Positions 46,078-51,749 of a stretch of 64,000 nucleotides of DNA are shown piece after piece (the stretch's first letter is position 1; each line of letters starts with the position of its first letter). Source of the DNA: Octopus vulgaris (taxonomy: Eukaryota). A program made the position numbers and the translations under genes. The stretch is from assembly GCA_951406725.2 (NCBI GenBank), contig OX597817.1, positions 46,500,001 to 46,564,000 of the forward strand, written 5' to 3'. The notes under the pieces were generated by a model. The model searched no databases, was not told where the DNA came from, and worked only from the letters and a program-made list of their open reading frames with translations.

Positions 46078-49000
46078 ATATATACTGAACTTTACAGAAG
46101 TTCCTGCCGGTAATCGGCTATATTTACACACCGAATTCTACCAGTAAATAATTAGGGTTTTTTAAAAAGCCTTTATAGAAATTATTTACTCTTATCATTA
46201 TATTACTATTTGGATTTTTCACTCCCTTTGACAACCTAACTGTAATGCGCATGGCAAAATTTTGGAGGGAAGATTTATGAATTCAAACGTCTATGTAGGT
46301 TTAGCCTTTGCTCACTTTCTTCAAATATTTTGATGTCGCATGGTCAGAAGGTTTGAGGTACGTAGCATTTGATAAATCTATGATAAATCTTTTTCAATGG
46401 AAAGCTGTGCTGAAGAAGGATGTGAAATATATATGCAATATATATGAAATATATATCAAAAATATATGGAATATATATTCAATATGTTTATAATCCAGAA
46501 ACATGATGTTCACAGATAACCGCCAGACTTCGTATTCGTTATCTATTCCTTCTGTTTTGCTTATGTGAATTATAGGGTCTGTCATGCCCGGAGTCCAACT
46601 TTGATAGAAATAAGCATTCTTGACTGCTATTTCTATTTTTTCGGTATGCGGTCAAGCAACCTGTTTTGCCTGTCCCTTTTTCTTATATACAATATATATA
46701 CTGAACTTTACAGAAGTTCCTGCCGGTAATCGGCTATATTTACATACCGAATTCTACCAGTAAATAATTGGGGTTTTTTTAAAAGCCTTTATAGAAATTA
46801 TTTACTCTTATCATTATATTACTATTTGGATTTTTCACTCCCTTTGACAACCTAACTGTAATGCGCATGGCAAAATTTTGGAGGGAAGATTTATGAATTC
46901 AAACGTCTATGTAGGTTTAGCCTTTGCTCACTTTCTTCAAATATTTTGATGTCGCATGGTCAGAAGGTTTGAGGTACGTAGCATTTGATAAATCTATGAT
47001 AAATCTTTTTCAATGGAAAGCTGTGCTGAAGAAGGATGTGAAATATATATGCAATATATATGAAATATATATCAAAAATATATGGAATATATATTCAATA
47101 TGTTTATAATCCAGAAACATGATGTTCACAGATAACCGCCAGACTTCGTATTCGTTATCTATTCCTTCTGTTTTGCATATGTGAATTACAGGGTCTGTCA
47201 TGCCCGGAGTCCAACTTTGATAGAAATAAGCATTCTTGACTGCTATTTCTATTTTTTCGGTATGCGGTCAAGCAACCTGTTTTGCCTGTCCCTTTTTCTT
47301 ATATACAATATATATACTGAACTTTACAGAAGTTCCTGCCGGTAATCGGCTATATTTACATACCGAATTCTACCAGTAAATAATTGGGGTTTTTTTAAAA
47401 GCCTTTATAGAAATTATTTACTCTTATCATTATATTACTATTTGGATTTTTCACTCCCTTTGACAACCTAACTGTAATGCGCATGGCAAAATTTTGGAGG
47501 GAAGATTTATGAATTCAAACGTCTATGTAGGTTTAGCCTTTGCTCACTTTCTTCAAATATTTTGATGTCGCATGGTCAGAAGGTTTGAGGTACGTAGCAT
47601 TTGATAAATCTATGATAAATCTTTTTCAATGGAAAGCTGTGCTGAAGAAGGATGTGAAATATATATGCAATATATATGAAATATATATCAAAAATATATG
47701 GAATATATATTCAATATGTTTATAATCCAGAAACATGATGTTCACAGATAACCGCCAGACTTCGTATTCGTTATCTATTCCTTCTGTTTTGCATATGTGA
47801 ATTACAGGGTCTGTCATGCCCGGAGTCCAACTTTGATAGAAATAAGCATTCTTGACTGCTATTTCTATTTTTTCGGTATGCGGTCAAGCAACCTGTTTTG
47901 CCTGTCCCTTTTTCTTATATACAATATATATACTGAACTTTACAGAAGTTCCTGCCGGTAATCGGCTATATTTACATACCGAATTCTACCAGTAAATAAT
48001 TGGGGTTTTTTTAAAAGCCTTTATAGAAATTATTTACTCTTATCATTATATTACTATTTGGATTTTTCACACCCTTTGACAACCTAACTGTAATGCGCAT
48101 GGCAAAAGTTTGGAGGGAAGATTTATGAATTCAAACGTCTATGTAGGTTTAGCCTTTGCTCACTTTCTTCAAATATTTTGATGTCGCATGGTCAGAAGGT
48201 TTGAGGTACGTAGCATTTGATAAATCTATGATAAATCTCTTTCAATGGAAAGCTGTGCTGAAGAAGGATGTGAAATATATATGCAATATATATGAAATAT
48301 ATATCAAAAATATATGGAATATATATTCAATATGTTTATAATCCAGAAACATGATGTTCACAGATAACCGCCAGACTTCGTATTCGTTATCTATTCCTTC
48401 TGTTTTGCATATGTGAATTACAGGGTCTGTCATGCCCGGAGTCCAACTTTGATAGAAATAAGCATTCTTGACTGCTATTTCTATTTTTTCGGTATGCGGT
48501 CAAGCAACCTGTTTTGCCTGTCCCTTTTTCTTATATACAATATATATACTGAACTTTACAGAAGTTCCTGCCGGTAATCGGCTATATTTACATACCGAAT
48601 TCTACCAGTAAATAATTGGGGTTTTTTTAAAAGCCTTTATAGAAATTATTTACTCTTATCATTATATTACTATTTGGATTTTTCCTTTGACACCCTTTGA
48701 CAACCTAACTGTAATGCGCATGGCAAAAGTTTGGAGGGAAGATTTATGAATTCAAACGTCTATGTAGGTTTAGCCTTTGCTCACTTTCTTCAAATATTTT
48801 GATGTCGCATGGTCAGAAGGTTTGAGGTACGTAGCATTTGATAAATCTATGATAAATCTTTTTCAATGGAAAGCTGTGCTGAAGAAGGATGTGAAATATA
48901 TATGCAATATATATGAAATATATATCAAAAATATATGGAATATATATTCAATATGTTTATAATCCAGAAACATGATGTTCACAGATAACCGCCAGACTTC

Positions 49001-51749
49001 GTATTCGTTATCTATTCCTTCTGTTTTGCTTATGTGAATTACAGGGTCTGTCATGCCCGGAGTCCAACTTTGATAGAAATAAGCATTCTTGACTGCTATT
49101 TCTATTTTTTCGGTATGCGGTCAAGCAACCTGTTTTGCCTGTCCCTTTTTCTTATATACAATATATATACTGAACTTTACAGAAGTTCCTGCCGGTAATC
49201 GGCTATATTTACATACCGAATTCTACCAGTAAATAATTGGGGTTTTTTTAAAAGCCTTTATAGAAATTATTTACTCTTATCATTATATTACTATTTGGAT
49301 TTTTCACTCCCTTTGACAACCTAACTGTAATGCGCATGGCAAAAGTTTGGAGGGAAGATTTATGAATTCAAACGTCTATGTAGGTTTAGCCTTTGCTCAC
49401 TTTCTTCAAATATTTTGATGTCGCATGGTCAGAAGGTTTGAGGTACGTAGCATTTGATAAATCTATGATAAATCTTTTTCAATGGAAAGCTGTGCTGAAG
49501 AAGGATGTGAAATATATATGCAATATATATGAAATATATATCAAAAATATATGGAATATATATTCAATATGTTTATAATCCAGAAACATGATGTTCACAG
49601 ATAACCGCCAGACTTCGTATTCGTTATCTATTCCTTCTGTTTTGCATGTGAATTACAGGGTCTGTCATGCCCGGAGTCCAACTTTGATAGAAATAAGCAT
49701 TCTTGACTGCTATTTCTATTTTTTCGGTATGCGGTCAAGCAACCTGTTTTGCCTGTCCCTTTTTCTTATATACAATATATATACTGAACTTTACAGAAGT
49801 TCCTGCCGGTAATCGGCTATATTTACATACCGAATTCTACCAGTAAATAATTGGGGTTTTTTTAAAAGCCTTTATAGAAATTATTTACTCTTATCATTAT
49901 ATTACTATTTGGATTTTTCACTCCCTTTGACAACCTAACTGTAATGCGCATGGCAAAATTTTGGAGGGAAGATTTATGAATTCAAACGTCTATGTAGGTT
50001 TAGCCTTTGCTCACTTTCTTCAAATATTTTGATGTCGCATGGTCAGAAGGTTTGAGGTACGTAGCATTTGATAAATCTATGATAAATCTTTTTCAATGGA
50101 AAGCTGTGCTGAAGAAGGATGTGAAATATATATGCAATATATATGAAATATATATCAAAAATATATGGAATATATATTCAATATGTTTATAATCCAGAAA
50201 CATGATGTTCACAGATAACCGCCAGACTTCGTATTCGTTATCTATTCCTTCTGTTTTGCATATGTGAATTACAGGGTCTGTCATGCCCGGAGTCCAACTT
50301 TGATAGAAATAAGCATTCTTGACTGCTATTTCTATTTTTTCGGTATGCGGTCAAGCAACCTGTTTTGCCTGTCCCTTTTTCTTATATACAATATATATAC
50401 TGAACTTTACAGAAGTTCCTGCCGGTAATCGGCTATATTTACATACCGAATTCTACCAGTAAATAATTGGGTTTTTTTAAAAGCCTTTATAGAAATTATT
50501 TACTCTTATCATTATATTACTATTTGGATTTTTCACTCCCTTTGACAACCTAACTGTAATGCGCATGGCAAAATTTTGGAGGGAAGATTTATGAATTCAA
50601 ACGTCTATGTAGGTTTAGCCTTTGCTCACTTTCTTCAAATATTTTGATGTCGCATGGTCAGAAGGTTTGAGGTACGTAGCATTTGATAAATCTATGATAA
50701 ATCTTTTTCAATGGAAAGCTGTGCTGAAGAAGGATGTGAAATATATATGCAATATATATGAAATATATATCAAAAATATATGGAATATATATTCAATATG
50801 TTTATAATCCAGAAACATGATGTTCACAGATAACCGCCAGACTTCGTATTCGTTATCTATTCCTTCTGTTTTGCATATGTGAATTACAGGGTCTGTCATG
50901 CCCGGAGTCCAACTTTGATAGAAATAAGCATTCTTGACTGCTATTTCTATTTTTTCGGTATGCGGTCAAGCAACCTGTTTTGCCTGTCCCTTTTTCTTAT
51001 ATACAATATATATACTGAACTTTACAGAAGTTCCTGCCGGTAATCGGCTATATTTACATACCGAATTCTACCAGTAAATAATTGGGGTTTTTTTAAAAGC
51101 CTTTATAGAAATTATTTACTCTTATCATTATATTACTATTTGGATTTTTCACTCCCTTTGACAACCTAACTGTAATGCGCATGGCAAAAGTTTGGAGGGA
51201 AGATTTATGAATTCAAACGTCTATGTAGGTTTAGCCTTTGCTCACTTTCTTCAAATATTTTGATGTCGCATGGTCAGAAGGTTTGAGGTACGTAGCATTT
51301 GATAAATCTATGATAAATCTTTTTCAATGGAAAGCTGTGCTGAAGAAGGATGTGAAATATATATGCAATATATATGAAATATATATCAAAAATATATGGA
51401 ATATATATTCAATATGTTTATAATCCAGAAACATGATGTTCACAGATAACCGCCAGACTTCGTATTCGTTATCTATTCCTTCTGTTTTGCATATGTGAAT
51501 TACAGGGTCTGTCATGCCCGGAGTCCAACTTTGATAGAAATAAGCATTCTTGACTGCTATTTCTATTTTTTCGGTATGCGGTCAAGCAACCTGTTTTGCC
51601 TGTCCCTTTTTCTTATATACAATATATATACTGAACTTTACAGAAGTTCCTGCCGGTAATCGGCTATATTTACATACCGAATTCTACCAGTAAATAATTG
51701 GGTTTTTTTTAAAAGCCTTTATAGAAATTATTTACTCTTATCATTATAT
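46078..51749 (+). repeat. Tandem array of ~616-bp hammerhead-containing units (9 full plus ~0.2), retrozyme/satellite-like
   Basis: CTGAACTTTACAGAAG recurs at 46085, 46701, 47317, 47933, 48549, 49170, 49784, 50400, 51015, 51631; only a few differences between units; (TA)n on both sides. Confidence 0.97.
46405..46515 (+). ncRNA. Type-I hammerhead ribozyme of the array unit (also starting at 47021, 47637, 48253, 48874, 49490, 50104, 50719, 51335)
   Basis: CTGTG-CTGAAGA-AGGAT-[71 nt]-ATCCA-GAAA-CATGAT-GTT-CACAG; predicted cleavage after 46510. Confidence 0.85.

What the first reader, a model, noticed from the sequence alone, without database searches (positions are those of the whole stretch)
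46078..51749. Young 9.2 x 616-bp tandem array with one hammerhead per unit: candidate large retrozyme / circular-RNA element
Seen: nine near-identical units plus about 118 bp, no credible ORF, bounded by (TA)n, each with a complete type-I HHR core and a 5-bp stem I. Known: HHR-bearing tandem repeats (newt satellite 2, Schistosoma Sm-alpha, Dolichopoda satellite, metazoan non-LTR retrozymes) self-cleave into monomers that can circularise; described animal monomers are usually a few hundred nt and shorter than this. Inference: read-through transcripts release a ~616-nt monomer (46511-47126) that circularises, and the array is the integrated product of rolling reverse transcription by a helper RT. 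This could be an undescribed cephalopod retrozyme family.
Basis: partly seen in the sequence, partly recalled or inferred. Interest (0 to 1): 0.92.

Follow-up and report, generated by a model that had tools for sequence, protein, structure and literature searches.

The report
Penelope-copied hammerhead retrozyme, DNA-expanded array
This is one of hundreds of genomic copies of a protein-free jumping repeat with a predicted self-cutting RNA; its insertion scars match those of Penelope-type transposons in the same genome, which likely copy it from a small RNA circle, while the unusual nine-copy length here likely arose later by DNA duplication.

Summary
Observation confirmed: nine units of 614-621 bp (98.2-100% alike) plus 119 bp, between (TA)n tracts, each with a type I hammerhead (predicted cut after 46510). 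The hammerhead is non-canonical (A.A at the base of stem II, GUU) and has no Rfam hit, but it covaries across four related families. The unit is a young dispersed retroelement (447 exact hits). Copies sit in (TA)n, have two fixed 3' ends, truncated 5' ends and head-to-head inversions. In 18 of 19 insertions with both ends called, one end uses each site; an intact Penelope-like element here does the same (8 of 8). Copies run through the cut site (461 vs 447 hits), so the template is a circle or uncut multimer, and both arms share one template variant. The nine-copy length is probably not one rolling event: it is far beyond the copy-number decay, and units share variants in a duplication pattern. 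No parent PLE with a homologous pLTR was found. Cleavage and circles are untested. New member of the known non-LTR retrozymes; 616 nt is within the published range. The scan noted similar elements and the same two-armed reading before, on other DNA of this and other genomes.

The parts
46085..51749 (+). Tandem array: 9 units of 614-621 bp plus 119 bp (family A, 616-bp subfamily); a single arm, no inverted arm
46040..46084 (.). Left (TA)n target tract; joins the unit at its internal TA tract. No target-site duplication can be read in (TA)n
51745..51831 (.). Right (TA)n target tract, abutting RT start site 2
46405..46515 (+). Type I hammerhead of unit 1 (repeated in every unit): stem I 46405-46409/46511-46515, CUGAAGA 46410-46416, stem II 46417-46497, GAAAC 46498-46502, near-palindromic stem III, predicted cut after 46510
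46511..47126 (+). Predicted cut-to-cut monomer, 616 nt (8 such monomers in the array); rod-like fold, about 65% paired
   Evidence: folds run on unit 2-3 sequence
46626..46648 (+). Motif conserved across families A-E, upstream of site 1; candidate RT recognition element (inferred)
46674..46700 (+). RT start site 1 (pyrimidine run then TA tract; unit end, position 616), a fixed 3' end of dispersed copies
51735..51749 (+). RT start site 2 (unit position about 119), the fixed 3' end used by this insertion; the 119 nt between sites 1 and 2 correspond to the PLE 'tail'
46085..46700 (+). Edge unit 1, with 5 substitutions against unit 2, 4 of them found in no other unit; interior units 2, 3 and 7 are identical

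Best explanation
The unit is a young, protein-free retroelement dispersed into (TA)n tracts with two fixed 3' ends, which is likely transcribed, likely cut by its hammerhead and ligated into a 616-nt circle, and likely copied into DNA by a borrowed Penelope-type RT/GIY-YIG enzyme, and this nine-copy array likely grew afterwards by DNA duplication. Steps: (1, inferred) read-through of two or more units, slow and probably dimeric hammerhead cleavage after GUU, and ligation by a host ligase. (2, inferred from scars) The enzyme nicks both strands of a (TA)n target. One strand primes at site 2 and the other at site 1 on the same RNA, using the internal U-rich/UA tracts. (3, shown as a pattern) Both cDNAs run upstream through the cut site and stop at random, mostly within one or two rounds. 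Their 5' ends join, giving head-to-head insertions with one site-1 end and one site-2 end, or one-armed insertions like this one. (4, inferred) Rare arrays then expand by unequal exchange or slippage.
For: Dispersal: 447 exact hits of a 23-mer across the hammerhead 3' half, 0 for the reversed control. The first 100 hits fall in 52 loci and 72 arms. 3' ends sit at unit position 119-125 or 616, in (TA)n. All 19 adjacent opposite-strand pairs are head-to-head. Of 54 insertions, 19 had both ends called: 18 site1+site2, 1 site2+site2, 0 site1+site1 (p = 3.8e-5 against 50:50). An intact 4270-bp RT+GIY-YIG element in the same genome shows the same (TA)n target, two start sites about 30-40 nt apart and partial tandems, with 8 of 8 both-called insertions site1+site2 among 18 counted. 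A second intact PLE also ends at two TA sites. Run-through: 461 hits just 3' of the cut vs 447 spanning it; 1 of 73 anchored arms has its 5' end within 420-434. One template per insertion: successive passes differ by 0.41% (67 pairs) and opposite arms by 0.69% (61 pairs), against 1.3-1.7% for the median other copy. Ribozyme under selection: C3-G8 in 86 of 87 family A contexts becomes U3-A8 in 23 of 25 family C contexts, and stem I stays paired with four different sequences in families A, B, C and E. Later expansion: arms hold 1, 2, 3, 4 and 13 hammerheads in 58, 11, 1, 1 and 1 cases. This gives 0.18 continuation per round and 0.0004 expected arms of 9 or more genome-wide. Units share variants in block patterns: 176G in units 4, 5, 6, 9 here, and a duplicated 2-unit block in L069. 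The only other 176G copy in the genome has a different haplotype.
Against: Cleavage, circles and the helper protein are untested. The A.A mismatch, GUU triplet and 81-nt stem II could make the ribozyme slow or dead. In the circular MFE, stem I is not formed, although the active fold costs only 0.9 kcal/mol. In a lizard PLE, hammerhead mutants inserted normally and unprocessed RNA was the main template in vitro (PMC11167929), and 8 of 9 Xenopus retrozyme dimers did not cleave. An uncut multimer explains run-through and shared arms just as well, and DNA-level homogenisation also lowers same-arm divergence. Neither intact PLE has sequence similarity to the unit, so the helper is assigned by scar pattern only. 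The end-calling patterns were tuned on these same loci, 35 of 54 insertions had an end left uncalled, and loci were chosen by hits to the unit or hammerhead.
Confidence: 0.62

Rival explanations
1. Same element and same Penelope-type helper, but the template is an uncut linear read-through transcript of two or more units. The hammerhead is slow or acts only to trim the RNA, and no circle takes part in copying.
For: Non-canonical core junction and GUU. No pile-up of 5' ends at the cut fits uncut RNA as well as a circle. Hammerhead activity was dispensable for PLE insertion in vitro (PMC11167929). Most arms hold one or two hammerheads.
Against: Successive passes are at least as alike as opposite arms (0.41% vs 0.69%), whereas different donor units should differ more. 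Many haplotype groups each made multi-unit insertions with variants fixed in all units, although 5' truncation should erode multi-unit donors. Hammerhead covariation across families about 70% alike.
Confidence: 0.25
2. One reading: all 9.2 units were written in one rolling reverse transcription and have not been rearranged since.
For: Units 2, 3 and 7 are identical to each other and to units on other contigs (L005, L006). The array ends exactly at site 2.
Against: The length is an extreme outlier under the observed decay. Variants are shared by non-adjacent units, the edge unit is the most diverged, and the other two long arrays (L068, L069) show block duplication.
Confidence: 0.06
3. The unit is the detached pLTR of an autonomous PLE that I did not find, or a plain satellite spread at DNA level.
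For: It has pLTR anatomy: hammerhead, then two RT start sites. The preprint derives retrozymes from pLTRs. Only 150 of 6136 GIY-YIG candidates were scored.
Against: Wherever copies were followed upstream, they continue into the next unit, an inverted arm or flank, not into an ORF. PLE fragments near a few loci appear to be neighbouring insertions; I inspected one, L160, and a (TA)n tract separates it. Families A, B and C are homologous around the whole unit at about 70-73%. Fixed 3' ends and 5' truncation are RT marks.
Confidence: 0.05
4. The array length is an assembly artefact.
For: Three units are identical; some differences are homopolymer indels.
Against: Six of nine units carry distinguishing changes, including a 5-bp insertion; other long arrays have their own fixed variants.
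Confidence: 0.02

Closest known systems
Metazoan non-LTR retrozymes (coral, mussel, axolotl: PMC7229834, parts 2-4 of 6 read; vertebrate survey bioRxiv 10.64898/2026.07.22.740005, parts 1-3 of 5 read)
   Same: Non-coding, low-GC tandem units, one type I hammerhead each, dispersed as monomers to multimers, highly paired predicted monomer, PLEs in the same genome, length within 51-972 bp.
   Different: No circle or cleavage shown here. The parts read propose PLE mobilisation from co-occurrence and pLTR similarity; here the link is the insertion scar itself, and no homologous pLTR was found. The survey's text lists no mollusc.
EN+ Penelope-like elements (PMC8557442, passages; PMC11167929, parts 1-2 of 4; PMC4209133, parts 1-2 of 4)
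   Same: 5' truncation, partial tandems, inverted 5'-truncated copy, microsatellite targets, two internal RT start sites that define a tail often present at one end only, hammerhead with palindromic helix III.
   Different: No ORF. The tail is about 119 nt instead of 30-40. Start sites resemble the (TA)n target, whereas the lizard element's did not resemble the cut DNA.
PLE minimal hammerheads and core variants (PMC4209133; PMC3088659, passages)
   Same: Short helix I, unpaired base 5' of stem II, palindromic helix III suited to dimer cleavage, natural U3-A8 covariation; a mismatch at 10.1-11.1 is described (U.U).
   Different: A conserved extra A between stem II and G12 in families A, C and E, an 81-nt stem II and a GUU site. 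I saw no description of this insertion in the passages read.

Membership tests
Non-LTR retrozyme | [quoted passage not shown] | tested here: met
Non-LTR retrozyme | Dispersed copies of variable unit number (mobile) | tested here: met
Non-LTR retrozyme | Canonical or min-HHR core | tested here: inconclusive
   Core nucleotides present and covarying; A.A at 10.1/11.1 and GUU; no Rfam hit
Non-LTR retrozyme | Highly self-paired monomer | tested here: met
   z -5.3 (A), -6.4 (644-nt subfamily), -4.2 (C); 2 of 5 controls also below -3
Non-LTR retrozyme | Self-cleavage in vitro | not testable with these tools
   bench test
Non-LTR retrozyme | Accumulates as monomer-length circular RNA | tested here: inconclusive
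   Wrap-around contigs in 3 of 4 runs cannot tell a circle from a tandem, and the runs are only guessed to be RNA
Non-LTR retrozyme | No LTR-retrozyme marks (LTR pair with type III hammerhead, PBS, PPT) | tested here: inconclusive
   Hammerhead is type I and units are tandem; PBS and PPT not searched
Autonomous EN+ PLE | RT + GIY-YIG ORF | tested here: not met
   No ORF in the array or continuous with the copies examined
PLE-mobilised element | 5' truncation, inversion, partial tandem, microsatellite target, two RT start sites | tested here: met
   same pattern in an intact PLE
PLE-mobilised element | Homology to the pLTR of an autonomous PLE | tested here: not met
   No hit attributable to a PLE's own pLTR in 50 PLE loci, including two intact families; the census is incomplete
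SINE / L1-type TPRT client | Single 3' end at the RNA terminus with A-rich tail; monomeric | tested here: not met
   Two internal start sites, tandem run-through

The most novel reading that the evidence does not exclude
An old, self-standing clan of 550-650-nt ribozyme circles (families A, B, C and E; A is about 70% like B and C around the whole ring) parasitises Penelope-type enzymes without sharing their pLTR. Its scars expose a general PLE mechanism: one enzyme dimer on one circular RNA primes the two target strands at two different fixed sites. This would explain the one-sided 'tail', the inverted arms and the partial tandems of PLEs in one step, and offers a 616-nt minimal template for testing it.
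Probability: 0.4. Interest if true: 0.72.

Novelty: new member of a known kind. Interest (0 to 1): 0.5.

Why it matters
How retrozymes are copied, and how PLEs make their tandem and inverted insertions, are named as open questions in the papers read. This family gives countable genomic evidence: strict pairing of two start sites, one template variant per insertion, and run-through of the cut site. Two intact, very young PLEs in the same genome are candidate helpers, so the question can be tested in vitro with a short RNA. It also warns that long retrozyme arrays need not be rolling-circle products.

Tried and rejected
Rfam: no hammerhead. Parent PLE search: patterns for a short-stem-II version of this hammerhead gave 0 hits. 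One Pfam accession I asked for is not in the library. BLAST, local alignment (score 54 vs shuffled maximum 49) and profile searches found no pLTR homology in the two intact PLEs or the other GIY-YIG loci. Loci of families B, C and E led to more non-coding units. A PLE fragment beside L160 is separated from it by (TA)n. The idea that this array is the donor of other copies was not supported: the single outside 176G copy has another haplotype. Expression: no RNA holder listed on record. Splice-like signals flank the hammerhead, but no GT-AG joint appeared in those contigs, so an intron is unsupported. RNAalifold on 5 monomers gave 14 of 181 pairs with a double change and an unfavourable covariation term (+5.6), so long-range structure is not shown to be conserved. 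The look-up of earlier findings by sequence found nothing. A Pfam check of 51860-53073 did not run.
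Full report
Observation. The array runs from 46085 to 51749: nine units of 614-621 bp at 98.2-100% identity plus 119 bp, between (TA)n tracts, with no ORF of 100 aa. Each unit holds a type I hammerhead: stem I CUGUG/CACAG, CUGAAGA, an 81-nt stem II, GAAAC, a 3-bp stem III and GUU at 46508-46510. It is not canonical. An unpaired A lies on each side of stem II's base, the triplet is GUU, and Rfam gives nothing. 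Stem III is a near-palindrome that pairs with a second copy at -6.4 kcal/mol, which suits dimer cleavage (dimer mode per PMC4209133). In 114 full genomic copies the 3' half is almost invariant.

The family. The unit matches at 95-100% on many contigs (188 matches from 40 of 1348 candidates scored). A 23-mer has 447 exact hits, control 0. The first 100 hits form 52 loci, which extrapolates to roughly 230 loci (inference). Subfamilies of 616, 618 and about 644 bp exist. A shared 3' module led to related families B, C, D and E (1811, 2548 and 2161 first-look candidates for B, C and E, overlapping). B and C are also tandem units homologous around the whole ring: C is a 548-nt monomer 73% like A, and B is 71% like A. 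Across 123 hammerhead contexts (87 A, 25 C, 2 B, 9 E), stem I stays paired with four different sequences, and C3-G8 (86 of 87 A) becomes U3-A8 (23 of 25 C). The search pattern allowed either base at each position independently. U3-A8 is a known natural covariation (PMC3088659 passages; PMC4209133). This is the best evidence that the ribozyme is under selection. Long-range pairing is not shown to covary.

Insertion anatomy. Copies end 3' at unit position 119-125 (site 2) or 616 (site 1), both pyrimidine runs followed by TA, and merge into (TA)n; 5' ends scatter. All 19 adjacent opposite-strand pairs among the first 100 hits are head-to-head. Of 54 insertions, 19 had both ends called automatically: 18 site1+site2, 1 site2+site2, 0 site1+site1. 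The other 35 had at least one end uncalled (p = 3.8e-5; patterns tuned on these loci). The genome holds two intact young RT+GIY-YIG elements: a 4713-bp unit with 479- and 781-aa frames, and a 4270-bp unit with a 775-aa frame and copies mostly 99.6-99.95% alike. Both end at two TA-like sites about 30-40 nt apart in (TA)n. For the second, 21 regions were examined and 3 dropped at an edge; 8 of the remaining 18 had both ends called, all site1+site2. These are the PLE marks described in PMC8557442 (passages: partial tandems, inverted copy, tail often at one end, microsatellite bias) and PMC11167929 (parts 1-2: both strands cut and extended, two internal RT starts, predicted dimer). Neither intact PLE resembles the unit in sequence, so the helper's kind is inferred and its identity is open.

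Template. A cleaved linear monomer would stop cDNA at the cut. It does not: 461 hits just 3' of the cut vs 447 spanning it, and 1 of 73 anchored arms ends there, while 60 cross it and 24 cross it at least twice (sample biased towards hammerhead-bearing loci). So the template is a circle or an uncut multimer. Leaving out the three long arrays and masking TA-rich and indel-prone parts, successive passes differ by 0.41% and opposite arms by 0.69%, against 1.3-1.7% for the median other copy (pairs within a locus are not independent). One RNA variant therefore serves both arms and all passes, which leans towards a one-unit circle. DNA homogenisation and the lizard data (hammerhead dispensable in vitro) keep the linear rival alive.

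This array. Arms hold 1, 2, 3, 4 or 13 hammerheads in 58, 11, 1, 1 and 1 cases. The decay (0.18 per round) predicts 0.0004 arms of nine or more genome-wide. Within the array, 176G is in units 4, 5, 6 and 9, 139A in units 4 and 5, and the edge unit is the most diverged. L069 has a duplicated two-unit block and L068 has alternating haplotypes. The one outside 176G copy belongs to another haplotype. A short RT insertion later expanded at DNA level fits best.

RNA. No holder is on record as RNA. In four runs guessed to be RNA, contigs cover the part laid, and three wrap around the unit, which cannot separate a circle from a tandem; no GT-AG joint was seen. One run shows 9 A>G sites and no T>C; in 124-145 genomic segments per site, G occurs once in total at these 9 sites. 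This resembles editing of the hammerhead strand, but without matched DNA it is only a hint.

Known context and novelty. It meets the working definition of a non-LTR retrozyme (bioRxiv 10.64898/2026.07.22.740005, parts 1-3 of 5; PMC7229834, parts 2-4 of 6); cleavage and circles are untested. A circular template for PLEs and retrozymes was already proposed. Six literature searches showed no cephalopod retrozyme. The 2026 octopus repeat annotation (PMC13282606, part 1 of 3 and term search) has no mention of ribozymes. Subscription journals, Repbase and all supplements were not seen and may hold this repeat. Earlier scan notes describe other families with the same two-armed reading; I reached it before reading them and they are not independent support. 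Verdict: new member of a known kind, useful as a mechanistic test case; interest 0.5.

Noticed in passing
L108:736-6040 (G000:C6:112993000+); L200/L201 (G000:C3:5853742+): Two very young intact PLE families (4713-bp and 4270-bp units), each with a long reading frame upstream of the RT+GIY-YIG frame. In the first it is 479 aa with no Pfam family over cut-off, overlapping the RT frame in another phase. In the second it appears frameshifted in the copy read. PLEs are described as single-ORF elements.
   Followed up: partly
L200:about 3715-3765: The 4270-bp PLE has a hammerhead-like motif with a variant core (C at position 4, U.U at the base of stem II, palindromic stem III, 5-bp stem I), about 140 nt upstream of its first RT start site; read by eye.
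   Followed up: partly
window 45500-46040: A 95-bp inverted repeat (87%) whose right arm continues about 120 bp to the (TA)n at the array's left end, with a decayed hammerhead-like motif on the minus arm. It looks like an older two-armed insertion of another family in the same TA island.
   Followed up: partly
window 13303-13095 (minus strand): Another type I hammerhead candidate with a 6-bp stem I, followed by a motif like the clan's conserved one and ending in (TA)n.
   Followed up: no
window 55148-55195: Hammerhead-like motif with a 6-bp stem I and GUC, but A at core position 8.
   Followed up: no
window 22936-25669: LINE with APE endonuclease and RT domains, split into two frames.
   Followed up: partly
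window 46355-46363 and 46570-46610 (each unit): A 5' splice-site-like GAG/GT motif, kept as GTAAGT, GTGAGT or GTATGT in families C and E, lies upstream of the hammerhead, with a pyrimidine tract and AG downstream. PLE pLTRs can hold introns, but no spliced contig was seen.
   Followed up: partly
window 47208-47312 (laid stretch): Cluster of 9 A>G differences in one run guessed to be RNA, nearly absent from genomic copies: possible A-to-I editing.
   Followed up: partly
window 51855-51890: The sequence right of the array begins like a Tc1/mariner terminal repeat (recalled resemblance, from no call; the Pfam check did not run).
   Followed up: no
window 37658-38000: 184-bp unit repeated 1.9 times, SINE-like by appearance.
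   Followed up: no
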